Source: an uncultured Staphylococcaceae bacterium
Lineage (GTDB): Bacteria; Bacillota_I; Bacilli_A; ML615J-28; CAG-313
Assembly: GCA_964541525.1 (NCBI GenBank)
Contig: CAZIQF010000005.1
Location: forward strand, 5,114 to 69,113
Reading direction: 5' to 3'
DNA: 64,000 nucleotides
Positions within the stretch are counted from its first letter, which is position 1; each line of letters opens with the position of its first letter. A program made the position numbers and the translations under genes. The notes beneath the pieces were generated by a model that saw only the letters and a list, made by a program, of their open reading frames with translations, did not search any database and was not told the origin of the DNA. Below, in pieces: positions 14,663 through 62,135 of the stretch.

Positions 14663-14951
14663 TTATTGTATCAAGATTATCTTTAATAATTAATTTTTTA
14701 TAAATTATTTTATTTGACAAATTATTCAGCAATCATCAAATTGATCAACTAAAATAACAGCAACTTATCGGACAAAAATTTTATTTTATGTTATAATGAT
14801 AATTGAAGTTAAGATAAAGATCGTATAAAATCGATAATAAGGATCGATTGTATCTACCATATCACCTTAAATGATATGACTACGATTAATTATAAAGCTT
14901 TGTTTGTTTATAATTTTTCGTTTTTATGATATTTATCTAATATCTAAAATT

Positions 14952-34737: not shown

Positions 34738-35331
34738 ATGGATATCAGAAGAAATAATGATGGTTGGATTGAAGTAATCTGTGGAAGTATGTTTGCTGGT
34801 AAAACCGAAGAACTAATTAGAAGAATTAATCGAATCAAATATGCGAAAAAAACAATTGTTGTCTTTAAACCCAAGATTGATAATCGTTATGATGATATTC
34901 AAGTTGTTTCTCACTCTAATTTAAGAGTTGATGCCATCCCGATTTCAACCGCTAAAGAAGCCTGTGGTTACTTAACAACTTTACCATATGCAGTAGCTTT
35001 TGATGAAGTTCAATTCTTTGAACAAGATATTGTCGATTTATGTGAACGTCTGGCTAATTCCGGAGTTAGAGTTATCTGTGCTGGTCTTGATTTAGACTTT
35101 AGAGGTGAACCATTTGGAATAATGCCAGAATTATTATGTCGTGCTGAATTTGTTACTAAATTAAATGCGATTTGTACTGTTTGTGGTGCACCAGCAACGA
35201 GAACACAAAGAATCATTAATGGTCGTCCTGCTGATTATGAAGATCCAATTATTCTCGTTAGTGCTCATGAAAAGTATGAAGCGAGATGTCGTTTCTGTCA
35301 TCAAGTTCCTCATAAAAATTACCATGAATAA
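34738..35331 (+). CDS. tdk: Thymidine kinase
   Basis: [15 protein letters not shown]-loop and C-terminal zinc ribbon CTVCG...CRFCH. Promoter TTGTCG-17-TATAAT upstream. Confidence 0.9.
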
Positions 35332-35794
35332 TCATCAAGATGAATATTTTATGACTCTTGCATTAAAAGAAGCTAGGAAAGCATACATTAAAAAAGAAGT
35401 GCCAGTAGGTTGTGTAATTGTACTTAATGGTGAAGTGATTGCTAGAGCTCATAATCAAAGACATAAAAACAAATCAGTATTTGATCATGCTGAGATAATC
35501 GCTATTAAAAAGGCAAATAAAAAATTAAATAGTTGGATGTTAGATGAGGCAATTATGTATGTAACTTTAGAACCATGTTTAATGTGTGCTGGAGCAATTA
35601 TCCAATCACGAATTAAAAGAATTGTATATGCTGCGACTGAACCGAAATTTGGTGTATTCGGTAGCGTACTTAATCTAAAAGATCATATGCATAAATTCAA
35701 TCATCAATTAGAAGTTACCCCTTTAATTATGAAAGAAGAGTCATCAACGCTGCTTAAAACCTTTTTTAAAGAAATTAGAAACACTAAGTCCTAA
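35324..35794 (+). CDS. tadA: tRNA-specific adenosine deaminase
   Basis: HAE (DHAEIIAIK) and PCLMCAGAI zinc-ligand motifs. Start ATG overlaps the tdk stop (ATGAATAA). The ORF-track upstream extension was ignored. Confidence 0.9.
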
Positions 35795-35844: not shown

Positions 35845-35962
35845 AGATCTTATTTTAAGTACCTTCATCCAAGGCTCCATAGCGAACCAGGTCAGATCGT
35901 GATTGAAGCAGCCTTAAACTTTTTGTAGCTTGTGGGTGGGGGGACTTAAGATAAGATCTTTT
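35845..35962 (+). ncRNA. ffs: Small (4.5S-type) signal recognition particle RNA
   Basis: Terminal helix AGATCTTATTTTAAGT / ACTTAAGATAAGATCT. Internal ACCAGGTCAG..GAAGCAGCC matches the conserved SRP domain IV motif. Ends in a T-run. Lies immediately downstream of tadA, as scr does in Bacillus. Confidence 0.75.
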
Positions 35963-41239: not shown

Positions 41240-41349
41240 ATAATAACACCTCCACATTACTAGTATATCACAAAAGGACTTAATTTATAATAATTTAACA
41301 ATACCTTTCATATACTTAACTATAGGTAATGAAGAAAGGAAGAAAAATA

Positions 41350-43284
41350 ATGTTGGAAACATTTAGTACTAAAGCCGTTCAATTAATTGATGAGGCTAAA
41401 CAATTATCGAAAGAAATGTCTGAAGTATCAGGTACTATAGTTGAGGTCACTACCTATCATTTATTATTATCAATGTTTCTTGCGAATGATACGATTTGTC
41501 ATTTTTTGTTGAAAGAAGAAAATAAAACATTGGATGATATAGTTAATGCGAGAAATAAAATCACTTACACCGAAGAACTAGGAACCGTTTTTACAAAAGA
41601 ATTTGAAGCCATTGTCGCTTTAGCTAGTAGAATAGCCTTAAAAGTTGAATCGGAATATGTCTATGATGAACACTTATTTTATGCAATTTTAGAACATCAA
41701 GATAATCTAGCAGTTAAAGTAATTAATGAATTAAATCTAAATATTGATTTATTGAAACAAGACATTGAAGATATTTTTAATTTTTATCAAACAGAAATTA
41801 TTTATCAGCCCCAAAAAGAAGAACAACTAAAATATTTAATCTGTTTAAGCGATATAAAACACATTCATCCCTATATTACAAGAAGTACCTATATTGAACA
41901 AATGATTTATATTTTAAATAAACGACAAAAGAATAACCCTTTATTAATTGGTTCAGCAGGAGTTGGTAAAACCGCTCTAGTTGAAGGTTTAACTAAATAT
42001 ATCAGTGAAAAGATTTATGAATTAGATTTAGGGGGGATGATCGCCGGTACTAAATATCGAGGTGAAATGGAAGAAAAAATTATTAATGCAATAGAATATG
42101 TCAGCAAGAATAATGGAATTTTATTTATTGATGAAATTCACAATATCGTTGGTGCGGGATCAAATGATGGTAGTTTAGATTTAGCTAATCTTTTAAAACC
42201 ATATTTATCAAAAGGTGTAATTAAAATTATTGCAGCAACGACTTTAGATGAATATTATCAATATATGGATAAAGATAAAGCTTTGACCAGAAGATTTCAA
42301 AATATTTTTATTGATGAACCAACTAAAGAAGAAACCGTTACAATCTTAAAAGGAATTAAAACTAAATATGAAGAATACTATCATACTGTAATCAGTGATG
42401 AATTAATTGAATATATTGTCAAACAAACAGATGATAATTTGTTAAACAAAAAATTCCCGGATAAAGCAATTGATGTGCTAGACGAAACCTTTTCCAGATA
42501 TCGTCTAAAACAAGAAGATTTGAAAAAGTTAGTTCTAAAAGTAATTGAAAATATTAATGGAATCAAATTACCAACTAAAGAAGAAATCCAAACAATGAAG
42601 TTAAATTATGAAGAATTAGTCCCATTTTATTTACGTAAATTATATCCTCTAACTAATGTTAAAAATTTAGGCATTATTAAAGTTAATCATAATTTTAAAA
42701 TTAATCTCCTTTTAAATGATTTAAATCAAGTTTTCAATTTCAAGAAAGAAATGTTATTAACAATTGATGCAAATGACTATCAAACGATTGAATCAATTAA
42801 TAATTTAACCGGATCATCAAAAGGTTATGTTGGATATGAACAAGGTGGTTTACTCTATAATCATATTTTAAAGTATCCGATTAGTTTGATTTATCTTAAA
42901 AACTTTAATCAATCTGTGCCTAGTTTTAAAGTCTTTTTTAAAGACTTATTTAAAAAAGATTATATTATGGATGCTCATATGCGAATGATTTATTTGAAAA
43001 ATACGTTATTTATTGTTCAAGATATAGATAAGCAAATAACGGTTGGATTTGTTAATCAACAAAATCGTCAAAATAAATATTATGATTATTATCTAAAAAA
43101 ACAAATAACAATGGAAAATTTAGAGATAGATACGTATCTTTTAAAAAAAGGAATTATTATTGAAGGTTTAAAACATTTAAGTGAACAAGAACAACTTAAC
43201 TTATTTTATCAAGCGATTACTAAACCAATGGGAAAATATAAAGTAAAATTAGAACAAGAAACAATTGTGCTAGAACAGGTATGA
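41350..43284 (+). CDS. ClpC-like AAA+ protein: Clp_N repeats and intact D1 ATPase, but a catalytically dead D2 that retains the VGF ClpP-docking loop
   Basis: D1 has Walker A LLIGSAGVGKTALVEGL, Walker B ILFIDEIHNIV, and an arginine-finger region TTLDEY..ALTRRFQ. D2 aligns (GSSKGYVGYEQGG like GSPPGYVGYEEGG; VGFVNQQ like VGFNVQD) but lacks a GKT P-loop. Its Walker B DEIE is replaced by KNFN and sensor-1 N by D. Confidence 0.75.
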   Translation: MLETFSTKAVQLIDEAKQLSKEMSEVSGTIVEVTTYHLLLSMFLANDTICHFLLKEENKTLDDIVNARNKITYTEELGTVFTKEFEAIVALASRIALKVESEYVYDEHLFYAILEHQDNLAVKVINELNLNIDLLKQDIEDIFNFYQTEIIYQPQKEEQLKYLICLSDIKHIHPYITRSTYIEQMIYILNKRQKNNPLLIGSAGVGKTALVEGLTKYISEKIYELDLGGMIAGTKYRGEMEEKIINAIEYVSKNNGILFIDEIHNIVGAGSNDGSLDLANLLKPYLSKGVIKIIAATTLDEYYQYMDKDKALTRRFQNIFIDEPTKEETVTILKGIKTKYEEYYHTVISDELIEYIVKQTDDNLLNKKFPDKAIDVLDETFSRYRLKQEDLKKLVLKVIENINGIKLPTKEEIQTMKLNYEELVPFYLRKLYPLTNVKNLGIIKVNHNFKINLLLNDLNQVFNFKKEMLLTIDANDYQTIESINNLTGSSKGYVGYEQGGLLYNHILKYPISLIYLKNFNQSVPSFKVFFKDLFKKDYIMDAHMRMIYLKNTLFIVQDIDKQITVGFVNQQNRQNKYYDYYLKKQITMENLEIDTYLLKKGIIIEGLKHLSEQEQLNLFYQAITKPMGKYKVKLEQETIVLEQV

Positions 43285-43530
43285 TGACAATATAATGATA
43301 TTGAACTTATATTTTTTGATATAAGTTCTTTTTAATTTTGGCTTAAGTATTGATACAATAATATCATCAACAAACTTTAATCTCTTTATTTAGTTTATTA
43401 TTTTTTAGTTGATAGGGATTAATTTATTCACATCGATTAAATGATTATAAAAATAAAAAACTATATTTTAATATTTTTTTTGTTTGATGTGTTATAATAA
43501 ATATAAGTAGTATGTTTAATGAGGTGGACA

Positions 43531-46500
43531 ATGAAAAGAAGCGAAAATAAAACTTACCACATTCAATCCATAAATAAACATTTAGTTAATATATTAGAAG
43601 AAAATTATTATATCGAACTTGGTAATGTTGACTTACATATTATTGAAGCGATTTTAATTGGACAAACAGTAAATTTTAATCAAATGTTTGATTATAATAT
43701 CTTAACTAAAGGTATTGGCAAAATTATTGATGAAACAGATGATGCTCATTTTCAATTTAATTATTTATATGAACTTCATCAAAAATCATCATCATCGAAA
43801 TTCGTTTTAACATGTGGAACAATTAGATATTTAGATAAAACTGGGGTTGAAACATACGCACCGATAGTATTAATCCCACTTAGTTTAGATTATCTTAATA
43901 TGGAATTTGTAATTAATAGTTCACCAAAAATTAATAGTGTTTTTATTCGATTACTTAAAAGAAACTATCGAAAAGAAAAAGATCTATTAGAACAAAAAAA
44001 ACAAGAAGTGGTTCAAGAAGAAGCGATTAATTCAGTCACAGAACAGATCAATAATATCAATAATCTAATTCATAATCTTGATATTATCGAAGAAACTAAA
44101 CTTTCTAGTGTTTATGAAATTGATATGTTATGCAAACGATTAAGTGAACTAACATCATTAACCATTGATACAACTAATTACTTAACGGTTGTGGAAGTTG
44201 AGTATCCCGATTATATTGATAAAAAAGGGTTATTTGGTATTCAACGTTCAATCTATGAAATGAATGATATTGAACTATTAAACCAATATTTTTTAACTAC
44301 TCATGGGATTTTGACTAGTAATATTGAACAAAAATATATTACACTAAAGGCGCATCAAGGTGAATCATTTGTTGTTGATGGTCGTCTTGGTTCGGGTAAA
44401 ACGCAAACTGTAATTAATATTATTGGTGATTTTTTATTTGAAGCTAAAAGAGTTTTGTATGTTAACCATGATTTAGATAACATTAATGATTTTAGAAGAA
44501 AGATTAAATTTTTAGGTCTTGGTAGTTATCTATATGATTTAACTAAAAATGTTAGTGATATTGATAATGAAACCGAATTAGAAGTTAAAAAATATGGTAA
44601 ATTTAATTTTAATAAGATTAATGATCTTGCATCATATCGTAATATATATGATTATAAGTTTCATGGTTATCCCTATAGTTATATCCTAGAAAAAATTGCG
44701 ATTCGTAAAGCAAGACAAATTCAAAATAATGTCGTTTTAGAAGAAAACTTAGACCGCGAAGAAGTTGAATATATCTATAAAGCATTAAAACAAATAGAAT
44801 ATGAATTACAATTTATTGATCCATTACCAGATAATGTTTGGGGATCATTATCATCAGCAAAAAATGCTCCCGATGTATCAGAGATTATTGAACGAACTAA
44901 TAACTTGTTAGAACAAACGAAAAAATTACTTAAACTATTAAGCAAAATTGAAACAAAATATCATTTAGAAGAAATTGATTCTATATCCAATTTTCATCGT
45001 TTAATTGAACAAATGATCAGTTTTGTCAGTGTTAGACCTATCCTTAAATGGATTGAAACTGATTTTTATGAAAAATCACATCAAGCGTTAGCCGAAATTA
45101 ATAATGATATTGATATCCATTATAGTTGTACGACATTCTATAAACAACATTGCCCAGATGACTATCTTCCTGGCAGTATTAGTGAGGCTTTTAAAACAAT
45201 TATCCATAAACATTATGATATTAAAAATGCTTATAGTGCTGATTGTGTATATGTCAATGAATTATTATCATCATTTGATCAGTTATGTGCGCTTGTTGAT
45301 CAAATTAAAAAATGGGTTAAAGACTCAATAAATTGTTATGATTTATTAAAGAAGTATTTTAATTATGATACACCTAATCGAAATCAATTTATTTTATTTA
45401 ATAAGCTACTTAGTTTACTTCAAACTTATGAAATTGATGATGTATGGTTCTTAGAGTTTGTTGAAAACCCCAAAGAAATGATAAAAAAATCAATTACACT
45501 AAGTGAAGAATTTAAACAATTACAGACTTTGAGGGAATCACTTTTACCATATCTAACGTTTAATGAACTTATTTTTGTTAATGTAGAAGAAATTGTTAAT
45601 CATAAACGTTTTACCCGCATTTTAAAGAAACATCTTAATCAGCCTAAAATTAAACAAGATGGTTTAAGTGTAAATACCATTTGTTCTCGATTTAAAGCCT
45701 ACTATGAACAATGCTTATTGATTAAAAATGAACTACCAAAGCAAACATCATTTAATCAATTTGATGAACAAATTTGGAATGCTTATTTGAATTTTCTAAT
45801 TTTTGTCAGCAAATTAACATCATTTGAAACTAATAGTTTAGTTTATTTATTTAAGAATGGTTTAAATCAAAAGGGTGGATCAAAAGAACAATTAATTAGT
45901 AATTTACATCGCTTAAGAGAAAATCAAAAAGAATTAGAAATTATTGAACATCATTTAGGTAAATATAATATTGCAATAGCAGGGGATAATTTCTTAGAAT
46001 CGGTTTATTTTATTAAAAGTAATCTTAATTACTTAGACAAAGTAATTGATGCGATAAAGAAAATTCAAAATAGTTTTATTGATAGTAGGAATTTAAAAAC
46101 GACAGATATCTTAACTTTAATCGAAATTGATAATCAACACTTATTAGTACTCGACCGAATGGAAAAAAATAGTGATCGTTATGAACAATTGTTTGGTTCA
46201 GCATTTAAAAAATTTGCGACTCTAACATCAGAAATTACGCAATCAATTGAACGCTTTATGGAATTTATGAAACGTTTTAAAACTACTGATACAATAACTC
46301 AACAAGAACTACTTACGGTGCTCCTAGCTGAGAAACCATTTACGGATTTTTTAGATAATATTGGTTTGTTTACGAATAGTCATAGTGAATGGTTTAGTGC
46401 CTTAAGAGACTTTTCGACTTGTTTCTTTGGCGGAAAGATGGGGCTTCAAAATAGCACCTTTAAAGAGATTATTGCGTTATTAAAAGTTCATGTCAAAAAG

Positions 46501-47889
46501 ATTGATCAAGTCGAACATGTATATATCATTGAACATATTTTGGATACATTCTATCGTTATAAATTAGAAGATTTACCAAAAGGCATTCAATCAGGGAAAT
46601 ACGCAACAGGGATTGCTGAGGCATATCTTTATTCAACAATGTGTAAATATTACCACGATATGAAAGAACAAGGTTATATCCAATTTGATTTAGACGTTAT
46701 GAAAAAAACGGCAATAGCTTTTGATGAAGAAGAAAGTAAATACGCTGAAACCAATTTATTTAATTTAAGACATCATCATCATCGCTTTGGAAATAAGCAA
46801 AATAAAGATTTAAATGCTAAAGTTCTTGCGAATAAATCACTACCAAATAATAAAGGTTTATTTGTTAGTGATGTTGATGTTTTTAACAATATTGAAGATT
46901 TAAGTTATTTTGACTTGGTCATTATTGATGATGCTCATTTATCAACAGCTAATAAATATGCGAATATCTTAAATGCAAGGCAAGTCATTGTTTTTGGTGA
47001 CCGAATGTTCCAAACCTCAGTAACTAATACTTTAATGCAACGGGTTAAGAGTAGTAGAGTTGTGCCATTACGCAAACGTTATATCAAAATGAGAAACGAT
47101 TTTGGCAATATGTGGCAAGTAGATAATCAATTTATTTATTCACCACAACTACCATTAAATATAAGTGGCTATAATAGCTTAGAAGAAATGGTAATTGAAG
47201 TTGTCAAACAGTTTAAATTATATAAAGATACCCTTGATAAACGTACCTTCAATATTATTGTTGGATCTTCAGTTACTCGTAGAGAAGTTTACCGCATTTT
47301 AATTAACACCTTAAAACAAGAATATTCCACTGATGAAATAGTAATGATTGCCGATGATTTAATTAGAATTATTGCAGTAAATGGTGAATCAGCAAGGATT
47401 GCTTCGGAAGTGTATTTATGGTATGATGATATTGTTATGTATGATCAAATGGCTAAAGATTTAATTAAGCGAAATTATATTACTTCAAGCAAAAAAATAA
47501 ATCTTTGTTATCAACTAGTTAAAAATCCTAAACAAAATGAAGATATGCTTCAATCAATTAACGATTTCGTTGGTAATCATCTTGTCATAACTAATAATAC
47601 TGAGGGAATTGCGAAAATCATCTGTGAAGAATTAACTAAAAAAGGTATTGATATTGAACTAGGATATGGACATTTAGATTTAGTAATCAAAACGCAAGCG
47701 AAAAATATTGGGATTATGCTTTATGGTAAGCGAATTAATAATAGTTATTCAATGGTGGATGATTATTTATACTTTGTTAAAGAATACCAAAGAAATGGTT
47801 GGGAAATTAAACAATATTCAATGGAAGCAATTGCTGAATCACTAGATAATGTTCTAACTGATATTATTAATACAGTTAATAAAGGATAA
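43531..47889 (+). CDS. Giant (1452 aa) SF1-helicase-like P-loop NTPase with a ~840-aa helical insert between Walker A and motifs II/III
   Basis: Walker A VVDGRLGSGKTQTVINII at about aa 290. DLVIIDDAHLS (motif II-like) and VIVFGDRMFQ (motif III-like) at about aa 1130-1165. No clear motifs IV-VI. Own promoter TGTTATAAT. RBS GAGGTGG. Confidence 0.8.
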   Translation: MKRSENKTYHIQSINKHLVNILEENYYIELGNVDLHIIEAILIGQTVNFNQMFDYNILTKGIGKIIDETDDAHFQFNYLYELHQKSSSSKFVLTCGTIRYLDKTGVETYAPIVLIPLSLDYLNMEFVINSSPKINSVFIRLLKRNYRKEKDLLEQKKQEVVQEEAINSVTEQINNINNLIHNLDIIEETKLSSVYEIDMLCKRLSELTSLTIDTTNYLTVVEVEYPDYIDKKGLFGIQRSIYEMNDIELLNQYFLTTHGILTSNIEQKYITLKAHQGESFVVDGRLGSGKTQTVINIIGDFLFEAKRVLYVNHDLDNINDFRRKIKFLGLGSYLYDLTKNVSDIDNETELEVKKYGKFNFNKINDLASYRNIYDYKFHGYPYSYILEKIAIRKARQIQNNVVLEENLDREEVEYIYKALKQIEYELQFIDPLPDNVWGSLSSAKNAPDVSEIIERTNNLLEQTKKLLKLLSKIETKYHLEEIDSISNFHRLIEQMISFVSVRPILKWIETDFYEKSHQALAEINNDIDIHYSCTTFYKQHCPDDYLPGSISEAFKTIIHKHYDIKNAYSADCVYVNELLSSFDQLCALVDQIKKWVKDSINCYDLLKKYFNYDTPNRNQFILFNKLLSLLQTYEIDDVWFLEFVENPKEMIKKSITLSEEFKQLQTLRESLLPYLTFNELIFVNVEEIVNHKRFTRILKKHLNQPKIKQDGLSVNTICSRFKAYYEQCLLIKNELPKQTSFNQFDEQIWNAYLNFLIFVSKLTSFETNSLVYLFKNGLNQKGGSKEQLISNLHRLRENQKELEIIEHHLGKYNIAIAGDNFLESVYFIKSNLNYLDKVIDAIKKIQNSFIDSRNLKTTDILTLIEIDNQHLLVLDRMEKNSDRYEQLFGSAFKKFATLTSEITQSIERFMEFMKRFKTTDTITQQELLTVLLAEKPFTDFLDNIGLFTNSHSEWFSALRDFSTCFFGGKMGLQNSTFKEIIALLKVHVKKIDQVEHVYIIEHILDTFYRYKLEDLPKGIQSGKYATGIAEAYLYSTMCKYYHDMKEQGYIQFDLDVMKKTAIAFDEEESKYAETNLFNLRHHHHRFGNKQNKDLNAKVLANKSLPNNKGLFVSDVDVFNNIEDLSYFDLVIIDDAHLSTANKYANILNARQVIVFGDRMFQTSVTNTLMQRVKSSRVVPLRKRYIKMRNDFGNMWQVDNQFIYSPQLPLNISGYNSLEEMVIEVVKQFKLYKDTLDKRTFNIIVGSSVTRREVYRILINTLKQEYSTDEIVMIADDLIRIIAVNGESARIASEVYLWYDDIVMYDQMAKDLIKRNYITSSKKINLCYQLVKNPKQNEDMLQSINDFVGNHLVITNNTEGIAKIICEELTKKGIDIELGYGHLDLVIKTQAKNIGIMLYGKRINNSYSMVDDYLYFVKEYQRNGWEIKQYSMEAIAESLDNVLTDIINTVNKG

Positions 47890-47893
47890 GATT

Positions 47894-48400
47894 ATGCCAA
47901 GTAACAAAACAATGTTAATCTCGATTATTCATGAATTAAAAGAAAATGCTAATCATCTTGCGAAAATCAAGACCTTAATTAGGTTAAATCTTGCTAATGG
48001 TTTTGATCTTAATACCAAGTATATCAAAGGAAGAACCCTTGGACACTATATTGTTAAATATAATATTACCGGTTTAATTGGGTTTGTCTCTAAATTAGGT
48101 TTAAATTTAGATATATGTGATGATAATTATGATACACCATTACATATTGCAGTAAAAAACAATCGTTTAAATTTAATTAAAGAACTAATCAAGGCCGGTG
48201 TTGACATTAATATGGCAGCTGAATTTGAAGCAACTCCACTCCATTTAGCAGTCTCAGAAGGACACCTAGATATTGCCAAACTATTAATTAAGTCTGGAGC
48301 TGATGTATCACTAGTTGATGAACACAATTTAACAGCTCTAGATTACGCAATTGATGAAAAAAATGAGCAAATGATTAATTTACTCAAAAATAAAAAATAA
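47894..48400 (+). CDS. Ankyrin-repeat protein (about 4 ANK repeats)
   Basis: DTPLHIAVKNNRLNLIKELIKAGVDIN and ATPLHLAVSEGHLDIAKLLIKSGADV are canonical ANK repeats. Starts 4 nt after the giant gene. Confidence 0.85.
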   Translation: MPSNKTMLISIIHELKENANHLAKIKTLIRLNLANGFDLNTKYIKGRTLGHYIVKYNITGLIGFVSKLGLNLDICDDNYDTPLHIAVKNNRLNLIKELIKAGVDINMAAEFEATPLHLAVSEGHLDIAKLLIKSGADVSLVDEHNLTALDYAIDEKNEQMINLLKNKK

Positions 48401-48418
48401 AAAGAAAGAAGGGAAAAT

Positions 48419-49216
48419 ATGATTGAACAGTATTTAGAAATGATCGGTTATACCGGTGAATATCGTTATATTATTTTTGCGATAGATCTAATCTTATCCT
48501 TAGGATTATTTACAGTTCTTTCAATAATGTTATATAAGAAGTTAAAACGAAAAACGGTTTTTTTAGTAGCAGCTAGTTATTTTATTGTATCAACAATTAC
48601 TACGATTTTAGATTTACAATTAGTTAAACTAGCCCTAATAACAACATTAGCGATTGTTTGTGTTGGTGCTTTAGTGATTGGTAATTTTGAACAAAAGAAT
48701 GGGGCTAAACCTCATCAACAACAAACAACAAACAAAGAAAATAAAAATTTCGTTTCCAATCAAGATGCGAAAGCGGCTTTAATTGAGACATTAGTCACAA
48801 CAGTTGAATATCTTTCATCTAGAAAAATTGGTGCGATTATTACCATTGAAAAAGAAAATAGTTTAAATCTATATATTAACAAAGCCGTAATTATTGATGC
48901 TGAAGTATCTTGTGAATTGCTTAAAACGATTTTCTTCCCAAACACCGCTTTACATGATGGAGCTGTTATTATTAGAGGAAACCGCATTATGTGTGCTGGT
49001 GTTTACTATAATCACTTAGCTGATAAAGAAGGATTAGGTGAACTAGGAACTCGCCATCGGGCGGCAATTGGAATTAGTGAAGAAACTGATGCTTTCACCC
49101 TTGTTGTATCAGAACAAACAGGAATTATTTCAACAACAATTGGGGGAACGATCACCAGAGAATTAAATGATCAAGAATTAAGAGTTTCACTTAATCAACA
49201 CATTATCGTTCAATAA
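48419..49216 (+). CDS. cdaA: Membrane-anchored diadenylate cyclase (c-di-AMP synthase), CdaA type
   Basis: Three N-terminal transmembrane helices. DAC domain motifs IGAIITIE, HDGAVII, LGTRHRAAIGISEETDA, VVSEQTGIIS. Confidence 0.9.
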   Translation: MIEQYLEMIGYTGEYRYIIFAIDLILSLGLFTVLSIMLYKKLKRKTVFLVAASYFIVSTITTILDLQLVKLALITTLAIVCVGALVIGNFEQKNGAKPHQQQTTNKENKNFVSNQDAKAALIETLVTTVEYLSSRKIGAIITIEKENSLNLYINKAVIIDAEVSCELLKTIFFPNTALHDGAVIIRGNRIMCAGVYYNHLADKEGLGELGTRHRAAIGISEETDAFTLVVSEQTGIISTTIGGTITRELNDQELRVSLNQHIIVQ

Positions 49217-49228
49217 TAGGTGGCAAAG

Positions 49229-50446
49229 ATGAACCTATTATCAATGAGTAAAAGTTTAGCCATTTACCAAATGGTTAATAAATATGAAATTGTGCTATAT
49301 GCAATCTTATTTGGAGCCTTAGTCTTAACAATAATCAGCAAATCGATTATTAGCCGTAAAGTTGACTTTATTACGATTATTTTACTAATTATTCTCATAG
49401 CCATTATCTTTATTCCCGCTATAAATCTATCCTTATTTTACTTATTGATGATTTTATCGTATATCTATCTTTGTTTAATTAATGTCGATTTATATCTAAA
49501 ATTCATCTTTAAACAAACCCGAAATAAAAAGTTGTTAGAACATATAAAAAATGATACAACTGATTATTACTTGAGTTTAGATTTAAAAAACAAAATCTTA
49601 GATTATAGTGGTTCATTATTAAATTTAACGAAATTAACGGATAAACAAATTAGAAAAAGTAAGAGTTGGGAATTATTATTTAAACATTTGAATGTCGTAA
49701 AACTAAATAATGAAGTATATGGTAAAGAAGTTTTAGCTAATTTTATTTTAAGTTTAGAAAAAGTCGTAAGTAAATACAAACTATATCAATTTGATATCGA
49801 AGTAAAAAACGAAGAAATCACTAAATATAATTGTTTTATTCAAGCCATTTACTATAAAAACTTAAAAATTGGTCTAAATGTATATATCTATAGTGATAAA
49901 ATGCAAGTATTAACAAGATTAAAAGAAAATTTAGATGTGACATTAACTTCACTATATAATTATAAAAAAAGTTTACATATTTTAATGTCCCTTCAAGAAG
50001 GCATGGCACTATATTTTGACTATCAAGAAAAACTTTATTACGCAACTGAAAGTTTTAAAAACTTCATGAACAATAATAAAACAACATATACTTTCCAAGA
50101 AATATATGAAATGATTGCTGATGATGACAAAGACAGTTATGTTGAAGAAAGTAGAAACATCAATAATCTAAATATTAACCGCATTAAGTTTAAACTTTTA
50201 TTAAAAGATGAAGTATATTTCGCAATTGAAGATTCAATTAATTTATCTACTGATGATAATGAATTGGTATCAGTGATTAAAATTTTAGGTCTTGCATCTA
50301 AAGTAGATAGTAGTCCAATTCTATCAACTCAACAAACAATTGATCTAATGAAAGAATTCGCTCAAACACCAGTAACGCCAATTGTTTATGAAATTGAAGA
50401 ATTATTAAATAGTGTTTTAGAAAAAGAGGAAAAAGATGAAAAGTAG
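49229..50446 (+). CDS. Membrane protein of unknown function in the CdaR/YacL position
   Basis: 2-3 N-terminal transmembrane helices, then about 300 aa of mixed alpha/beta sequence. No YbbR, PIN or TRAM signature recognised. ATG after RBS AGGTGG. Confidence 0.6.
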   Translation: MNLLSMSKSLAIYQMVNKYEIVLYAILFGALVLTIISKSIISRKVDFITIILLIILIAIIFIPAINLSLFYLLMILSYIYLCLINVDLYLKFIFKQTRNKKLLEHIKNDTTDYYLSLDLKNKILDYSGSLLNLTKLTDKQIRKSKSWELLFKHLNVVKLNNEVYGKEVLANFILSLEKVVSKYKLYQFDIEVKNEEITKYNCFIQAIYYKNLKIGLNVYIYSDKMQVLTRLKENLDVTLTSLYNYKKSLHILMSLQEGMALYFDYQEKLYYATESFKNFMNNNKTTYTFQEIYEMIADDDKDSYVEESRNINNLNINRIKFKLLLKDEVYFAIEDSINLSTDDNELVSVIKILGLASKVDSSPILSTQQTIDLMKEFAQTPVTPIVYEIEELLNSVLEKEEKDEK

Positions 50447-51597: not shown

Positions 51598-52218
51598 ATG
51601 AAAAAATTAAAAACATTAATTATTATGATATTACTATTATTAATCCCTTTAACGATTATCTCTTCACTAGATAATTATTTTAGTGAAAGAACAGAAGAAT
51701 ACCTAGAACACGCAGTAACCTTCGCTGCATCAGATATCTTTTCTAATGCATCATTAGAAGTAGCTGATTTTGCAGCAGACACACCATTTTTAAAATATAG
51801 TTATGATGAAAATAATCAAATAACAGGAGTATATGTTGATACAATCACCGTTAACTTGATTTTAACTAAAGTATCACAATTAATTTCAACTTCACTCAGT
51901 AATGGGGCTATTGAAGAAAAACTTGGATCAGTCCCAATCCCCTTAGGACAATTTATCTCCAAATCGATTTTTGCCAATGCAGGTCCAGATATTATTATTA
52001 AGACGTCACCAATGTACTCATATACAACCGATTTATATACTACAACTACAGACTATGGCATTAATAATACATTATTAGAGGTATATATCCTAGCTGTAAT
52101 TAATATTGAAGCATTTATTCCTTTAATTAGTCAAAATATATCTTTAGAAACTAAAATTTACTTAATTTCTGAAGTACTACAAGGAAGTATTCCTGTTTAT
52201 TATTTTTCAGCATCATGA
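51598..52218 (+). CDS. Membrane-anchored protein, possibly YunB-family sporulation protein
   Basis: N-terminal transmembrane helix, 206 aa. Assignment by size and topology only. Confidence 0.35.
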   Translation: MKKLKTLIIMILLLLIPLTIISSLDNYFSERTEEYLEHAVTFAASDIFSNASLEVADFAADTPFLKYSYDENNQITGVYVDTITVNLILTKVSQLISTSLSNGAIEEKLGSVPIPLGQFISKSIFANAGPDIIIKTSPMYSYTTDLYTTTTDYGINNTLLEVYILAVINIEAFIPLISQNISLETKIYLISEVLQGSIPVYYFSAS

Positions 52219-55144: not shown

Positions 55145-55189
55145 AGTATAAAAATAATTGGTTAAAAATAAAATACATTGGTGATGAAA

Positions 55190-55843
55190 ATGAAAAAGAA
55201 TGTAACTTTATTTTTAACTTTTATTATTGTTATGATTACATTATTAACTGCATCAACAATTTATCAAGCTAATACATATCCTTCAATTGTAATTGATCCT
55301 GGACATGGAGGCTTTGATGGTGGAGCAACGATTAATAATTGCTTAGAAAAAGATATTACATTAACTGCTAGTTTAATGATTGGAGAACTATTAGAAAAAA
55401 CGGGATATAAAGTAACATATACTAGAAAAAAAGATATTGCATTGGATAACGCTAAAGTTAAAGATATGCAGAAACGTTTAAAAATAATTAATAAAGAATC
55501 AACAATAATATATATATCTGTTCATGCTAATATCTATTCAAGTAATATTGCTCGTGGTGCGCAAACGTTTTATAATAGTAATAATCCCGCATCAGCATTA
55601 CTTGCAGATTATATCCAAGAAGCATTGGTATCTGAAGATAAATTAAATAAAAGAAAAGCTAAAGGAATTACGGGGAAATACCTTCTTGATCAAGCCACAT
55701 CTGTTGGATGTATTGTTGAACTTGGCTTTATGAGCAACGAAGAAGAATTAAAAACATTAACTGATGAAAAACTCTTAGAAAAACGTTGTTTAATGATTTA
55801 TTTAGGAGTCTTAAAATATTTACAAACAGATATCAAATACTAA
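55190..55843 (+). CDS. cwlD: N-acetylmuramoyl-L-alanine amidase, CwlD-like (Amidase_3)
   Basis: IVIDPGHGGFDGGA and the ..ISVHAN.. Amidase_3 motifs. N-terminal transmembrane helix. Small size typical of CwlD. Confidence 0.7.
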   Translation: MKKNVTLFLTFIIVMITLLTASTIYQANTYPSIVIDPGHGGFDGGATINNCLEKDITLTASLMIGELLEKTGYKVTYTRKKDIALDNAKVKDMQKRLKIINKESTIIYISVHANIYSSNIARGAQTFYNSNNPASALLADYIQEALVSEDKLNKRKAKGITGKYLLDQATSVGCIVELGFMSNEEELKTLTDEKLLEKRCLMIYLGVLKYLQTDIKY

Positions 55844-58483: not shown

Positions 58484-59875
58484 ATGAGTGTAAAAATTGT
58501 TGATACTTCATTAAGAGATGGTCATCAATCATTAATTGCAACTCGACTTACAACTGCTGATATTTTACCAGTTGCTGAACTTTTAGACAAAGCTGGATAT
58601 CACGCTCTTGAAGTATGGGGTGGTGCCACATTTGATGCATGTTTACGTTTTTTAAATGAAGATCCATGGGAAAGATTAGATTTAATTCGTAAAGCATGTC
58701 CTAATACTAAATTACAAATGTTATTTAGAGGACAAAATATCTTAGGATATCGTCATTATTCAGATGAAGTAGTAGAAAAATTTGTTCAAAAGTCATTAGA
58801 ACATGGAATTAATATTATTCGAATTTTTGATGCATTAAATGATTTAAGAAATTTAAAAAGTGCTGTTGATGCAACAAATAAGTATAAAGCACAATATGAT
58901 GGTCATTGTCAAATTGCTTTATCATATACAACAAGTCCAGTTCACACAATTGATTATTATGTAGAACTTGCTAAAGAAGTTGAAAAAATGGGTGCAGATT
59001 CAATCTGTATCAAAGATATGGCAGGGGTACTTCTACCTAATGATGCGTATGAATTAATCTCACGTTTAAAACAAAGTGTATCACTTCCATTGGAATTGCA
59101 TACACACTGTACAGGTGGAATTGCTGAAATGACAATAATGAAAGCAATTGAAGCTGGTTGTGATATCGTTGATACGGCTTTATCTCCATTTTCTGGTGGT
59201 ACTTCGCAACCATGTACAGAAAGTTTGCAATATGCACTTACAGGAACTGAATATGATCCACATCTTAATTTAGATTATTTGAAAAAAGCTTGTGAAAAAT
59301 TAACAGTGGTAAAAGATCGCTTTTTACAAGAAGGACTACTTAATCCGAAAGCACTAACTGTTAATCCTAATATTTTAAAATATCAAGTACCTGGTGGAAT
59401 GTTATCTAACCTTATGAGCCAATTAAAAGGTCAAAATGCAATGGATAAATATGAAGAAGTATTAAAAGAAATTCCACGTGTAAGAAAAGATTTAGGTTAC
59501 CCACCACTTGTAACACCACTTTCACAAATGGTTGGTACTCAAGCCGTTATGAATGTTTTATTTAAAGAACGTTATAAATCATGTCCAAAAGAAATAATTG
59601 AATACTTAAAAGGTAATTATGGACAAGCACCAGCACCAATTAATGAAGAAATTAGACACAAAATTATTGGTGATGCAAAAGTAATTACTCATCGTCCTGC
59701 GGATGATATTGCTCCTGAATTTGAAGCAATGAAAGCTAAATATGCTGATATTTGTGAATCTGATGAAGATGTATTATCTTGTGCATTATTTGAAAATGTT
59801 GCAGTAAAATTCTTAGAAGCAAAGAAAAAAGCAAATAATCAAGAAATCGTTGAATTCAACGTACATATTGGGTAG
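58484..59875 (+). CDS. Oxaloacetate decarboxylase alpha-type carboxyltransferase (PYC_OADA 5S domain), without a biotinyl domain
   Basis: MSVKIVDTSLRDGHQSL.. TIM-barrel carboxyltransferase domain. 463 aa, ending before any AMKM segment. Confidence 0.8.
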   Translation: MSVKIVDTSLRDGHQSLIATRLTTADILPVAELLDKAGYHALEVWGGATFDACLRFLNEDPWERLDLIRKACPNTKLQMLFRGQNILGYRHYSDEVVEKFVQKSLEHGINIIRIFDALNDLRNLKSAVDATNKYKAQYDGHCQIALSYTTSPVHTIDYYVELAKEVEKMGADSICIKDMAGVLLPNDAYELISRLKQSVSLPLELHTHCTGGIAEMTIMKAIEAGCDIVDTALSPFSGGTSQPCTESLQYALTGTEYDPHLNLDYLKKACEKLTVVKDRFLQEGLLNPKALTVNPNILKYQVPGGMLSNLMSQLKGQNAMDKYEEVLKEIPRVRKDLGYPPLVTPLSQMVGTQAVMNVLFKERYKSCPKEIIEYLKGNYGQAPAPINEEIRHKIIGDAKVITHRPADDIAPEFEAMKAKYADICESDEDVLSCALFENVAVKFLEAKKKANNQEIVEFNVHIG

Positions 59876-59883
59876 GTGATGAC

Positions 59884-60594
59884 ATGAAAAAAGGATTTAA
59901 ATTATTAACATTAGTTATCGCATTCTTTTTAGTTATTAATCTTGCTAGTTGCAGTAGTAAAGAATCTAACCTAGATTTAAAAGATGTGACAATTCCAGTA
60001 GTTATAGATATTAGTACTGAAGATAAAGTATTTTTAGGATATTATACTTTTGATGCAGAAACTAAAACGGGAACGCTATATACAGTAGGTGCTAGTATTC
60101 CTGGAGGTCAATATGAAGAAGTATTTATTGATGTAAAAGAAGAAGCACTTCCTTCTTATGCTAATGGTAGAAATGGCTTAAAATTTGCTGGTTGGTATCC
60201 AACAGCAGCATTTACTAATGGTGCTAAATTATCATCACTAGCTGCAATGGACAGTGATGCAGATGGCGTTATTTATGCTAAATATATTACATATGGTGAT
60301 GCAGGAATCATTGCTGTTGTATGTGTTATCATTGTATTTAGTATGCTTGCCTTATTATGGGGAATTGTATCATTATTTAAATATATTAAGCCAAAAGCTG
60401 AAAATAAGCAACAAACTAGTGCTAGTTCGGCAAATAATGCTAGTGCACCAATTGCAAATGCACCAAAACAAGCATTTACAATTGAAGATATTAAAGATGA
60501 AGATATGATGGTAGCTGCTTTAGTTGCTACAATTGATTATCATAATGAAACTAATGAAGATGTAAGAGTAGTTTCAATTAAACAAATTGGATAG
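59884..60594 (+). CDS. OadG-like decarboxylase small membrane subunit with an unusual N-terminal lipoprotein extension
   Basis: Lipobox LASC. About 110-aa extracytoplasmic domain, one transmembrane helix, then an Ala/Pro-rich segment and EDMMVAALVATIDYH.. typical of OadG/MmdD tails. Confidence 0.55.
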   Translation: MKKGFKLLTLVIAFFLVINLASCSSKESNLDLKDVTIPVVIDISTEDKVFLGYYTFDAETKTGTLYTVGASIPGGQYEEVFIDVKEEALPSYANGRNGLKFAGWYPTAAFTNGAKLSSLAAMDSDADGVIYAKYITYGDAGIIAVVCVIIVFSMLALLWGIVSLFKYIKPKAENKQQTSASSANNASAPIANAPKQAFTIEDIKDEDMMVAALVATIDYHNETNEDVRVVSIKQIG

Positions 60595-60606
60595 GAGAAA
60601 AAGGAA

Positions 60607-60948
60607 ATGAAAATTTATAAAGTTAAAGTTAATGGAAAAGTTTATGAAGTTGAATTAGAAAGTGTTAGTGAAGCAGCTGGTAATATTCAAGCACCAGTAG
60701 AACCTGCACAACAAGCACCAGCAGCAAGTGGTGCTGATTATGAATTAAAAGCACCGATGGCTGGTACAATTTTAGATGTTAAAGTCAGTGTTGGTCAAAG
60801 CGTTAAAGCTGGTGATGTTGTTTGTATTTTAGAAGCAATGAAACTAGAAAATGAAGTAGTAGCTGATAAAGCTGGTGTTGTTAAATCAATTGCTGTTAGT
60901 AAAAATACTGCAGTTCAAAATGGTCAATTATTGGTAGTTATTGGATAA
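60607..60948 (+). CDS. Biotin carboxyl carrier protein (biotinyl domain) subunit
   Basis: ..VCILEAMKLENEV.. biotinylation motif. Ala/Pro-rich linker. Confidence 0.85.
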   Translation: MKIYKVKVNGKVYEVELESVSEAAGNIQAPVEPAQQAPAASGADYELKAPMAGTILDVKVSVGQSVKAGDVVCILEAMKLENEVVADKAGVVKSIAVSKNTAVQNGQLLVVIG

Positions 60949-60954
60949 GATATT

Positions 60955-62127
60955 ATGGAAATGATTGGCAATTTATTTGAAAATTTCTTTAAACAAATGG
61001 GGTTTTTAAGTGATGGTCAATTTGATGCAACAAGTTTCTTATTAAGATTAGCAATGATTATTGTTGCTTGTGTCTTAATATATTTAGCTATTGCAAAAGG
61101 TTTTGAACCATATTTATTAATTCCTATTGGTATTGGAATGTTACTTGTAAACTTAGCTCCAGGGTTATATAGCAGTGATCCAACACATCCAGGATTGTTC
61201 TATACATTCCATAAAGGAATTGAATTAGAAATATTCCCACCATTAATCTTTTTAGGTATTGGTGCGACAACTGATTTTGGACCATTATTATCACGTCCAT
61301 CAAGTTTATTATTAGGAGCAGCTGCACAACTAGGAATCTTTATTACATTCTTTGGTGCAATATTATTGGGATTTAATGCTCTAGAAGCTGCAGCAATCGG
61401 TATTATCGGTGGTGCTGATGGACCTACTGCGATTTTCTTATCAAATAAAATGTTACAAGGTGCTGAAGGTGGCGAAATGTTATGTGCATCAATTGCGGTT
61501 GTTGCATATTCATATATGGCTCTTGTTCCAGTAATTCAACCACCTATTATTAAAGCTCTTACAACTAAAGAAGAACGTAAGATCAAAATGGTACAATCAC
61601 GTGCTGTTTCTAAACGTGAAAGAATCTTGTTCCCAATTGTGGTTATGATTGTTGTTATTACGTTAATTCCATCATGTGCTGCTTTAATTGGAATGTTAAT
61701 GCTTGGAAATCTAATTAAAGAATCAGGTGTCGTTCCTAATCTAGTTGATGCAGTAGCAAGAACAATTATGTATGCTGTAACAATTTTATTAGGCCTTTCT
61801 GTAGGCGCCACAGCCATCTTAACTGATGTTACGCAAGCACTAAGTTTTGTTAAAATCTTAATACTAGGTATGATAGCATTTAGCGTTGCTACAGCGGGTG
61901 GTGTTTTAGTTGGAAAATTAATGTGCAAATTAACTGGTGGAAAAGTTAATCCAATGATTGGTGCTGCCGGTGTATCTGCAGTTCCAATGGCAGCTAGAGT
62001 TGTTCATAAAGTTGGTTTAGAAGAAGATCGTTCAAATTATTTATTAATGCATGCAATGGGACCTAATGTTGCTGGTGTAATTGGTTCAGCAGTAGCAGCT
62101 GGTTTACTATTAAGTATTTTTGGGTAA
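60955..62127 (+). CDS. Na+-translocating decarboxylase beta subunit (OadB/MmdB/GcdB family)
   Basis: 390 aa polytopic. Typical N-terminus and SNKMLQGAEGGE region of the OadB family. Confidence 0.85.
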   Translation: MEMIGNLFENFFKQMGFLSDGQFDATSFLLRLAMIIVACVLIYLAIAKGFEPYLLIPIGIGMLLVNLAPGLYSSDPTHPGLFYTFHKGIELEIFPPLIFLGIGATTDFGPLLSRPSSLLLGAAAQLGIFITFFGAILLGFNALEAAAIGIIGGADGPTAIFLSNKMLQGAEGGEMLCASIAVVAYSYMALVPVIQPPIIKALTTKEERKIKMVQSRAVSKRERILFPIVVMIVVITLIPSCAALIGMLMLGNLIKESGVVPNLVDAVARTIMYAVTILLGLSVGATAILTDVTQALSFVKILILGMIAFSVATAGGVLVGKLMCKLTGGKVNPMIGAAGVSAVPMAARVVHKVGLEEDRSNYLLMHAMGPNVAGVIGSAVAAGLLLSIFG

Positions 62128-62135
62128 AACTTAAA

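What the first reader, a model, noticed from the sequence alone, without database searches (positions are those of the whole stretch)
41350..43284. ClpC paralogue with an intact D1 but a catalytically dead D2 that keeps the VGF ClpP-docking loop
The second half aligns residue-by-residue to ClpC D2 (GSSKGYVGYEQGG; LIYLKNFNQ in place of VVLLDEIEKAH; LFIVQD in place of IIMTSN; VGFVNQQ in place of VGFNVQD). The D2 P-loop is missing and Walker B DE is replaced by KN. The UVR-type middle domain is largely lost. Retention of the VGF tripeptide suggests the protein can still dock on ClpP while hydrolysing ATP only in D1. This would be a pseudo-ATPase adaptor or a minimalist unfoldase. No ctsR-mcsA-mcsB genes precede it.
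Basis: partly seen in the sequence, partly recalled or inferred. Interest (0 to 1): 0.6.

Follow-up and report, generated by a model that had tools for sequence, protein, structure and literature searches.

The report
ClpC orthologue with ATP-free second ring
This gene encodes a conserved, shortened ClpC-type protein unfoldase whose second motor ring has lost every ATP-binding motif yet keeps its substrate-gripping loop and the loop that normally plugs into the ClpP protease. That is unexpected, because the second ring is the main motor in the studied relatives.

Summary
The gene (true start 41350, stop 43284, 644 aa) has a Clp N-domain and a fully canonical D1. It has no middle domain. Its D2 lacks Walker A, Walker B, sensor-1 and sensor-2, and the C-terminal 252 residues contain no GK[ST], K[ST], D[DE] or GAR.

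This is not decay or an artefact. More than 200 homologues of 597-705 aa share the architecture, falling into about 35 clusters at 50% identity. They include uncultured 'Acholeplasmatales'/'Bacilli' gut MAGs, Candidatus Onthovivens and cultured 'Mycoplasmatota bacterium zrk1' and WC44. The D2 GYVGY pore loop is kept throughout. A [VILF]-G-[FLY] tripeptide at the ClpP-loop position is kept in 27 of 28 deeply divergent members, within unconserved, predicted-flexible flanks.

Conserved synteny (dus … clpC-like … cdaA … ispDF) makes it the positional orthologue of clpC, not a paralogue.

Most likely it is a D1-powered unfoldase whose nucleotide-free D2 ring serves as channel and ClpP dock. I could not show clpP in the same genomes. 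Canonical clpP exists in other low-GC 'Bacilli bacterium' MAGs, but no within-genome link was obtained.

Novelty: new variant of a known kind. Interest about 0.55.

The parts
41350..43284 (+). clpC-like gene, 644 aa plus stop. The ORF opens at 41329, but 41350 is the supported start.
   Evidence: Pfam Clp_N, AAA, AAA_lid_9 and partial AAA_2
41350..41784 (+). Clp N-terminal domain (residues 1-145, two helical repeats)
   Evidence: Pfam Clp_N E=2.6e-9; matches to the ClpC N-domain in the PDB; helical in the AF2 model with pLDDT mostly 73-93; mean pairwise identity 0.53
41866..42525 (+). D1 AAA+ module (large and small subdomains). Contains Walker A GSAGVGKT at 41950-41973, pore loop GTKYRGE at 42046-42066, Walker B ILFIDE at 42118-42135 and arginine fingers RRF at 42289-42297.
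   Evidence: all four motifs are invariant in 115 homologues; D1-large mean identity is 0.76
42526..42753 (+). Junction with the N-terminal part of the degenerate D2. No middle domain is present. The P-loop-equivalent segment LGIIKVNHNFK lies at 42667-42699.
   Evidence: The query has 71 residues between the D1 and D2 matches where B. subtilis ClpC has 154. No P-loop occurs in any family member. The AF2 model has strand 441-445 followed by helix 451-462.
42754..43029 (+). Degenerate D2 core. Contains pore loop GYVGY at 42823-42837, KN replacing the Walker B DE at 42898-42903, R545 at the Arg-finger position at 42982-42984, and QD replacing the sensor-1 SN at 43018-43023.
   Evidence: Pfam AAA_2 matches positions 21-121 of 166; mean identity 0.57
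43030..43074 (+). Flexible loop carrying the VGF tripeptide (43042-43050), at the position of the ClpP-docking loop
   Evidence: Aligned to the ClpC1 LGF loop. GF is invariant in 115 of 115 homologues. [VILF]G[FLY] is kept in 27 of 28 deep relatives with unconserved flanks. pLDDT is below 50 for residues 562-574.
43075..43284 (+). Short C-terminal alpha/beta domain, a reduced D2-small without the sensor-2 GAR helix, plus the stop codon
   Evidence: AF2 elements H591-599, E602-605, H612-622, E628-633 and E638-643; no ClpB_D2-small Pfam hit; no GAR; mean identity 0.28
43519..47889 (+). Conserved downstream partner gene: a 1456-aa P-loop, SF1-helicase-like protein of unknown family. It is possibly co-transcribed, since no terminator-like site was found in between.
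   Evidence: It lies directly downstream, or one gene away, in every locus examined, including strain zrk1. No terminator-like site was found. There is no Pfam family at gathering score and no PDB match. Weak ProA/Hhe similarity is far below cut-off.

Best explanation
The gene is this lineage's clpC orthologue, remodelled into a 'one-motor' Hsp100.

Shown here:
- The N-domain and a complete D1 ATPase are retained, with Walker A, Walker B, the KYR pore loop and the RRF arginine fingers.
- The middle domain is deleted.
- D2 has lost Walker A, Walker B, sensor-1 and sensor-2, so it cannot bind or hydrolyse ATP.
- D2 keeps the AAA+ alpha/beta core fold, the GYVGY pore-1 loop and a flexible [VILF]-G-[FLY] loop.
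- This state is conserved across deeply divergent Mollicutes-related Bacilli.

Inferred mechanism:
- The protein forms a double-ring hexamer.
- D1 alone supplies the power strokes for unfolding and translocation.
- The nucleotide-free D2 ring acts as a passive extension of the channel. Its tyrosine loops hold the polypeptide, and its xGF loops dock into the hydrophobic pockets of ClpP, so substrates are delivered for degradation.
- Without a middle domain, the enzyme cannot use MecA-type activation or the middle-domain-mediated resting state. It is probably constitutively assembled, with substrate choice left to the N-domain.
For: - Motifs and alignment.
- Family-wide conservation of the degenerate state: 115 close homologues. 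About 35 clusters at 50% identity, 597-705 aa long, have a single Walker A/B plus a D2 GYVGY loop. Deep alignment. Cultured isolates zrk1 and WC44 carry it.
- Purifying selection on D2: its core is as conserved (0.57) as the N-domain (0.53) and D1-small (0.51).
- xGF loop: GF is invariant. The first residue is I/V/L in 102 of 115 homologues. The motif is kept in 27 of 28 deep relatives while the flanks are unconserved and predicted disordered. This is the pattern expected of a docking tripeptide.
- Fold: the AF2 model (pLDDT 80.9) retains the D2 beta-sheet order. Its best PDB matches are ClpC-ClpP and ClpC1-ClpP1P2 complexes.
- Orthology by synteny.
- Canonical clpP, with all three catalytic residues present at the expected positions, exists in other low-GC uncultured 'Bacilli bacterium' MAGs and in Candidatus Faecimonas.
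Against: - No clpP was found in the window or in any locus carrying this gene.
- No record or contig could be shown to carry both genes.
- Classical Mollicutes are generally held to lack ClpP (my own knowledge). The family reaches into 'Mycoplasmatota' isolates, so some carriers may be ClpP-less.
- About 11% of close homologues have T, A or S instead of a hydrophobic residue before GF.
- In ClpA, D2 performs 80-90% of ATP hydrolysis and is the principal unfoldase, and a D2-inactive variant fails on many substrates (PMC7568338). A D1-only machine may therefore be weak.
- The residue at the Arg-finger position and the N of 'KN' are conserved among close relatives for reasons this model does not explain.
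Confidence: 0.55

Rival explanations
1. It is a ClpP-independent chaperone or unfoldase. D1 remodels or holds substrates. The dead D2 ring is only an oligomerisation scaffold and channel. The conserved xGF loop has been co-opted for another partner, for example the conserved downstream 1456-aa protein, or for an intramolecular role.
For: - No clpP could be linked to any carrier genome.
- The family occurs in wall-less 'Mycoplasmatota' isolates, and classical Mollicutes are generally held to lack ClpP (own knowledge).
- It is strictly adjacent to a giant uncharacterised P-loop protein in all lineages, with no terminator-like site between them.
Against: - The retained tripeptide matches the ClpP-docking consensus [LIV]-G-[FL] at the homologous position in a disordered loop.
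- ClpB-type chaperones lack this loop (established knowledge).
- Carriers such as this window's organism keep sporulation genes (yabQ, yunB) and look like ordinary small Firmicutes, which normally have ClpP.
Confidence: 0.25
2. It is a regulatory or adaptor subunit rather than an autonomous machine. It would form mixed hexamers with, or cap, another full-length Clp ATPase encoded elsewhere.
For: The presence of other Hsp100 or ClpX genes in these genomes could not be tested. Pseudo-enzymes often act as regulators (general knowledge).
Against: - It occupies the ancestral clpC locus in every lineage.
- The entire D1 catalytic apparatus and both pore loops are invariant. That is the signature of an active translocase, not of a passive adaptor.
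Confidence: 0.12
3. It is a decaying pseudogene, frameshifted assembly or sequencing artefact of a normal clpC.
For: Compared with ClpC (810 aa), about 170 residues and all D2 motifs are missing.
Against: - The reading frame is uninterrupted.
- The same architecture and length recur in hundreds of independent assemblies, including closed genomes of cultured strains.
- The D2 core is conserved at 0.57 mean identity.
- Among near-identical strains there are 3 non-synonymous against 13 synonymous differences. These are few sites, but the direction is consistent with constraint.
Confidence: 0.01

Closest known systems
ClpC of Bacillus subtilis and Staphylococcus aureus (Hsp100 class I, ClpP partner)
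   Same: It is the best sequence and structure match (3j3s E=9.5e-76; Foldseek top hits are ClpC-ClpP complexes). It shares the Clp N-domain, the classic-clade D1, the D2 GYVGY pore loop, a VGF loop at the same position, and the chromosomal neighbourhood dus … clpC … DAC … ispDF.
   Different: It has no middle (coiled-coil/UVR) domain. D2 lacks Walker A, Walker B, sensor-1 and sensor-2. D2-small is reduced to about 60 residues. There is no ctsR-mcsA-mcsB upstream. It is 644 aa against 810 aa.
ClpA of E. coli (N-D1-D2 without a middle domain, IGL loop)
   Same: The overall N-D1-D2 layout lacks a middle domain. NCBIfam ClpA is the top model, although far below its cut-off (307 against 993 bits).
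   Different: In ClpA, D2 is the principal ATPase and motor, performing 80-90% of hydrolysis (PMC7568338). Here D2 is nucleotide-free and D1 must do all the work, so the polarity is reversed.
Plastid-encoded ClpM/ClpC of apicomplexans and algae
   Same: It is a natural Hsp100 in which one of the two AAA+ modules has lost its Walker motifs in a reduced genome (bioRxiv 10.64898/2026.05.20.726455).
   Different: [quoted passage not shown] Here D2 is dead, D1 is retained and the ClpP-type loop is kept.
NSF and PEX1/PEX6-type double-ring AAA+ proteins with one non-hydrolysing ring (own knowledge)
   Same: There is a division of labour in which one ring is a structural or oligomerisation ring and the other is the motor.
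   Different: Those inactive rings generally still bind nucleotide. Here the P-loop is gone altogether, and the dead ring is the one facing a peptidase-docking surface.

Membership tests
Hsp100/Clp class I (double-ring ClpA/B/C/E) | Clp N-terminal repeat domain | tested here: met
   Pfam Clp_N E=2.6e-9 against a 20.7-bit cut-off; PDB ClpC N-domain matches
Hsp100/Clp class I (double-ring ClpA/B/C/E) | D1 AAA+ module with Walker A, Walker B, pore-loop Tyr, Arg fingers and AAA_lid_9 | tested here: met
Hsp100/Clp class I (double-ring ClpA/B/C/E) | D2 AAA+ (AAA_2) module with functional Walker A (GxxGxGKT) and Walker B (hhhhDE) | tested here: not met
   AAA_2 matches only positions 21-121 of 166. 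There is no P-loop and no DE in residues 393-644. The same holds across the family.
Hsp100/Clp class I (double-ring ClpA/B/C/E) | C-terminal D2-small domain with sensor-2 (GAR) | tested here: not met
   No ClpB_D2-small hit at E<=1. No GAR. Only a roughly 60-residue alpha/beta remnant is seen in the AF2 model.
Hsp100/Clp class I (double-ring ClpA/B/C/E) | Reaches the curated NCBIfam equivalog score for ClpA, ClpB, ClpV, ClpG or ClpK | tested here: not met
   ClpA 307 against 993 bits; ClpB 304 against 1232 bits
ClpC (Firmicutes type) | Middle (linker/coiled-coil) domain between D1 and D2 that binds MecA and mediates the resting state | tested here: not met
   There are 71 residues between the D1 and D2 matches, against 154 in B. 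subtilis ClpC. No extra helical hairpin appears in the model.
ClpC (Firmicutes type) | ctsR-mcsA-mcsB-clpC operon | tested here: not met
   The upstream genes are dus, orf252 and hflX on the opposite strand. The same holds in relatives.
ClpC (Firmicutes type) | Chromosomal position between dusB/lysS and radA-disA-ispD-ispF. The B. subtilis gene order is from my own knowledge. | tested here: met
   lysS at 1175, dus at 38174, the clpC-like gene at 41350, DAC at 48419 and ispDF at 50436. The order is conserved in 6 other lineages.
ClpP-partner unfoldases (ClpX/A/C/E) | Flexible loop carrying a [LIV]-G-[FL] tripeptide on the D2 (ClpP-proximal) module | tested here: met
   VGF at 43042-43050, aligned to the ClpC1 LGF loop, conserved and with pLDDT below 50
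ClpP-partner unfoldases (ClpX/A/C/E) | clpP encoded in the same genome | tested here: inconclusive
   clpP is absent from the 64-kb window and from all carrier loci. It is present in other low-GC 'Bacilli bacterium' MAGs. No shared contig or record was found. Whole carrier genomes could not be read with these tools.
ClpB/Hsp104 disaggregases | Long coiled-coil middle domain inserted in D1-small, and no ClpP loop | tested here: not met
   There is no middle domain, and an xGF loop is present.

The most novel reading that the evidence does not exclude
A whole clade of Mollicutes-related Bacilli, including very prevalent gut species and cultivable marine isolates, runs its ClpC-ClpP protease on the D1 ring alone. 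The ClpP-proximal D2 ring has become a nucleotide-free scaffold that only grips the substrate and docks the peptidase. This would be a natural inversion of the D2-dominant division of labour established for ClpA and ClpC. It would also show that the HCLR-clade ring is dispensable as a motor.
Probability: 0.5. Interest if true: 0.7.

Novelty: new variant of a known kind. Interest (0 to 1): 0.55.

Why it matters
Double-ring Hsp100 unfoldases are models for how two stacked AAA+ motors share work. In ClpA, the D2 ring does most of the ATP hydrolysis and unfolding, and engineered D2-dead variants are crippled (PMC7568338).

Here evolution has permanently removed nucleotide binding from D2. It has nevertheless preserved that ring's pore loop and peptidase-docking loop for a long evolutionary time, in lineages that include some of the most prevalent uncultured gut Bacilli. 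One variant is seen on 725 contigs.

If the protein works with ClpP, it is a natural minimal design. It tests which D2 functions (motor, conduit or dock) are really essential. It also offers a simpler one-motor system for mechanistic work.

If it works without ClpP, the conserved xGF loop points to an unknown partner.

Public annotation currently calls these proteins 'hypothetical', 'AAA family ATPase' or generic 'Clp ATP-binding subunit', so automated inferences about proteostasis in these genomes are unreliable. Cultured carriers (strains zrk1 and WC44) make the question experimentally accessible.

Tried and rejected
1. Looking for clpP/clpX in the window and first loci by tblastn found nothing. 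Pfam annotation of all 50-odd window ORFs found no Clp, Lon or FtsH gene other than this one.

2. Literature searches on Acholeplasma or RF39 with Clp gave nothing relevant.

3. A codon-biased ClpP DNA pattern scan of GTDB genomes failed at first. My pattern had an off-by-one gap (N{78} instead of N{79}) and returned 0 hits. I diagnosed this with local tests.

It yielded five 'Bacilli bacterium' MAG loci with canonical clpP next to whiA-yvcK-lgt and gap.

5. I tried to link clpP and the clpC-like gene within one genome in two ways. First, by matching 'longest contig' values between the ClpP hit list and the family lists. Second, by comparing record names. No match was found. A near-coincidence (52,748 against 52,749 bp) turned out to be two different contigs.

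6. The 'longest contig' argument is weak in any case. The hit lists are truncated at 120 rows and saturated with micro-variants.

7. Locus L231 looked syntenic by tblastx, but it is an unrelated clpP-clpX-dnaA region.

8. GAPDH identity between the window and the clpP-bearing species is only 47-56%. Those species are therefore not close relatives of the window's organism.

9. dN/dS per domain could not be estimated. The only unsaturated pair has 16 differences.

10. A metagenome scan with the family profile returned almost only canonical Hsp100s. It found one family member (L277), which has no clpP nearby.

11. The AFDB fold library was unavailable.

12. A defence-system reading of the gene pair was considered and set aside. 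PADLOC and NCBIfam hits are far below cut-offs, and the locus is a conserved housekeeping neighbourhood.
Full report
**What is there.** The window is about 28% G+C. An ORF runs 41329..43284 on the + strand. The start supported by comparison is the ATG at 41350. It has an AAGGAAG ribosome-binding site 7 nt upstream, and every homologue starts MLETFS or MFETFS. This gives a protein of 644 aa.

Pfam finds four domains:
- Clp_N.
- A classic AAA domain (D1).
- AAA_lid_9.
- Only the middle of AAA_2, profile positions 21-121 of 166.

No ClpB_D2-small domain is found even at E<=1. The NCBIfam ClpA and ClpB equivalogs score about 305 bits against cut-offs of 993 and 1232. The best solved relative is B. 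subtilis ClpC (E=9.5e-76). D1 aligns over residues 88-397. A second, weak match aligns residues 469-565 with ClpC 563-658.

All the quoted strings are present, and they align as claimed.

D1 has:
- Walker A GSAGVGKT at 41950-41973.
- Pore loop GTKYRGE at 42046-42066.
- Walker B ILFIDE at 42118-42135.
- RRF at 42289-42297.

In D2:
- The P-loop position reads LGIIKVNHNFK (42667-42699).
- The Walker B DE is KN (42898-42903).
- The sensor-1 SN is QD (43018-43023).
- There is no GAR sensor-2.

The whole C-terminal half (residues 393-644) contains no GK[ST], no K[ST], no D[DE] and no GAR. A cryptic site missed by alignment is therefore excluded.

Two D2 features are retained. One is the pore-1 loop GYVGY (42823-42837). 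The other is VGF (43042-43050). HMMER aligns VGF with the LGF ClpP-docking loop of Streptomyces ClpC1 from the ClpC1:ClpP1P2 complex (8xon).

The middle domain is completely absent. Only 71 residues separate the D1 and D2 matches, against 154 in ClpC.

**It is a conserved family, not decay.**
- The first database search returned a long series of 623-653-aa proteins at 47-100% identity. In 115 full-length members, the D1 Walker A, Walker B, KYR and RRF are invariant. No member has a D2 P-loop. The N of 'KN' is invariant, GYVGY is essentially invariant, and the GF of xGF is invariant. The residue before GF is I, V or L in 102 members and T, A or S in 13.
- An exhaustive HMMER search used only the D2 remnant plus tail against 1.84 billion cluster representatives. 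It found about 35 further clusters at the 50% identity level, 597-705 aa long. Each has exactly one Walker A/B pair, in D1, together with a D2 GYVGY loop.
- In an alignment of 28 such deeply divergent members, D2 identity is only about 30-40%. Even so, the pore loop is kept in all, and a [VILF]-G-[FLY] tripeptide is kept in 27 of 28, surrounded by unconserved sequence. The arginine at the Arg-finger position is not kept in the deep branches. That is what one expects if no nucleotide sits in the site.
- Mean pairwise identity per domain is as follows: D1-large 0.76, D2 core 0.57, N-domain 0.53, D1-small 0.51, loop flanks 0.30 and C-tail 0.28. The dead D2 core is therefore under as much constraint as the N-domain.

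**Structure.** AlphaFold2, run with the family alignment, gives mean pLDDT 80.9. D2 keeps the AAA+ strand order (441-445, 469-473, 512-517, 552-557, 580-582). The xGF loop (residues 562-574) has pLDDT below 50, so it is predicted flexible. A small alpha/beta domain (591-643) replaces D2-small. The best Foldseek matches in the PDB are ClpC-ClpP, MecA/ClpC/ClpP and ClpC1-ClpP1P2 structures.

**Who has it.** Names attached to members are:
- 'hypothetical protein [Acholeplasmatales bacterium]'.
- 'Clp protease N-terminal domain-containing protein [Acholeplasmatales bacterium]'. This variant is seen on 725 contigs.
- '[Candidatus Onthovivens sp.]'.
- '[Bacilli bacterium]'.
- 'AAA family ATPase' for the cultured Mycoplasmatota bacterium zrk1 (2.36-Mb closed genome) and WC44 (2.45 Mb).

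The window's organism keeps sporulation and wall genes: yabQ, yunB and an amidase. This is consistent with the uncultured Mollicutes-related Bacilli orders discussed in PMC10868615. I did not place the organism phylogenetically.

**Orthologue, not paralogue.** The local gene order in the window is:
- lysS (1175).
- tdk, tadA and the SRP RNA.
- dus (38174).
- orf252.
- hflX on the opposite strand.
- The clpC-like gene.
- A 1456-aa P-loop protein.
- An ankyrin protein.
- cdaA-type DAC.
- A 408-aa ORF.
- ispDF.
- yunB.

The same order recurs in all three close subclades and in strain zrk1, where hslO and dus lie upstream and DAC and ispD downstream. This mirrors the B. subtilis arrangement dusB-lysS-ctsR-mcsA-mcsB-clpC-radA-disA-yacL-ispD-ispF (own knowledge). 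The giant protein sits where radA is, and the DAC protein sits where disA is. The gene is therefore the positional orthologue of clpC, and the ctsR-mcsA-mcsB genes have been lost. Whether additional Clp ATPases exist elsewhere could not be tested.

**The ClpP question.** No clpP lies in the window or in any carrier locus.
- My first pattern scan of GTDB genomes failed because of an off-by-one gap of my own making.
- The corrected scan recovered canonical clpP, with all three catalytic residues present at the expected positions, in five low-GC 'Bacilli bacterium' MAGs. There it is flanked by gap-PRK on one side and whiA-yvcK-lgt-uvrA on the other.
- A profile of these ClpPs found 120 relatives. 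They include very prevalent species with closed 1.81-Mb and 1.42-Mb genomes, and Candidatus Faecimonas.
- None of these records coincides with the records that carry the clpC-like gene (1.70, 1.71 and 1.29 Mb, among others). Their GAPDH is only 47-56% identical to the window's.

Co-occurrence is thus neither shown nor excluded. The tools do not allow whole carrier genomes to be read. The evidence for ClpP docking is therefore indirect. It rests on the deep conservation of a consensus docking tripeptide at the homologous position in a flexible loop.

**Mechanism proposed.**

Shown:
- D1 is complete and is the most conserved part of the protein.
- D2 cannot bind nucleotide.
- The D2 fold, the pore loop and the xGF loop are conserved.
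- There is no middle domain.

Inferred:
- The protein forms a hexamer in which D1 is the sole motor.
- The D2 ring is a static conduit whose tyrosines hold the chain and whose loops dock ClpP.
- The enzyme is unregulated by MecA or the middle domain, with substrate selection through the N-domain.

This inverts the division of labour measured in ClpA. There D2 performs 80-90% of hydrolysis and is the principal unfoldase (PMC7568338). It is also the mirror image of plastid ClpM, where D1 is dead, D2 is live and the ClpP site is lost (bioRxiv 10.64898/2026.05.20.726455).

**Rivals.**
- A ClpP-independent chaperone whose loop serves another partner, such as the invariably adjacent giant protein. 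No terminator-like site lies between the two genes.
- A regulatory subunit for another Clp ATPase.
- Artefact or pseudogene, which the conservation data exclude.

**Verdict.** I found no description of such a D2-dead ClpC clade in the searchable literature, and curated models do not recognise it. I classify it as a new variant of a known kind, of moderate-to-good interest. Cultured carriers are available for a direct test.

Noticed in passing
window 43519-47889 (+): A 1456-aa ORF lies directly downstream of the clpC-like gene. It has a P-loop (GRLGSGKTQ) and a DDAH / VIVFGD SF1-helicase-like C-terminal part. It has no Pfam family at gathering score and no PDB match. It shows only remote similarity to the DUF4011-type anti-phage proteins ProA and Hhe (70 against 1500 bits). 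Homologues of 1359-1456 aa sit in the same place in every lineage examined, including cultured strain zrk1, where radA sits in B. subtilis.
   Followed up: partly
window 47894-50446 (+): An ankyrin-repeat protein (168 aa) is followed by a CdaA-type diadenylate cyclase (172 bits against a cut-off of 189). Next comes a 408-aa ORF with no family, at the position where a CdaR-like regulator might be expected. Then comes a fused ispD-ispF. The block is conserved with the clpC-like gene.
   Followed up: partly
window 9358-9848 (-): Two small overlapping ORFs (85 and 80 aa) lie between gap and a HAD hydrolase. By eye they look like a YoeB/Txe-type toxin and a YefM/Phd-type antitoxin. No tool was used to check this.
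   Followed up: no
window 14801-14902 (+): A purine riboswitch (Rfam RF00167, 82 bits) lies upstream of a 433-aa ORF with no Pfam family and a CitMHS/ArsB-type transporter.
   Followed up: no
window 35856-35951 (+): A small bacterial SRP RNA lies immediately after tdk and tadA. The tdk ORF (34738-35331) and the tadA ORF (35165-35794) overlap as listed, so the tadA start is probably further downstream.
   Followed up: no
window 7844-9001 (+): The GAPDH ORF is listed with a TTG start and a 28-residue N-terminal extension. The likely true start is the internal [12 protein letters not shown]. It is only 46-56% identical to B. subtilis GapA and to the GAPDH of the clpP-bearing 'Bacilli bacterium' species. 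In those species, gap lies a few kb from clpP.
   Followed up: partly
window 265-714 (-), 51598-52218 (+), 55178-55843 (+): Sporulation and cell-wall genes (yabQ, yunB and an N-acetylmuramoyl-L-alanine amidase) occur in an organism whose relatives are labelled 'Acholeplasmatales' in NCBI. This suggests a walled, possibly spore-forming lineage rather than a true mollicute.
   Followed up: no
window 58484-63402 (+): Genes for a Na+-translocating oxaloacetate decarboxylase (alpha, gamma-like and beta subunits) are followed by BioY and a biotin/lipoate ligase-family gene.
   Followed up: no
loci L137, L188, L210, L244-L273: In the low-GC 'Bacilli bacterium' species that do carry clpP, the gene is embedded in a conserved block: gap-(HAD)-PRK(551 aa) | clpP | whiA-yvcK(CofD)-lgt-uvrA. 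In one lineage (L223/L266), cysS-mrnC-rlmB-sigH is joined to it.
   Followed up: partly
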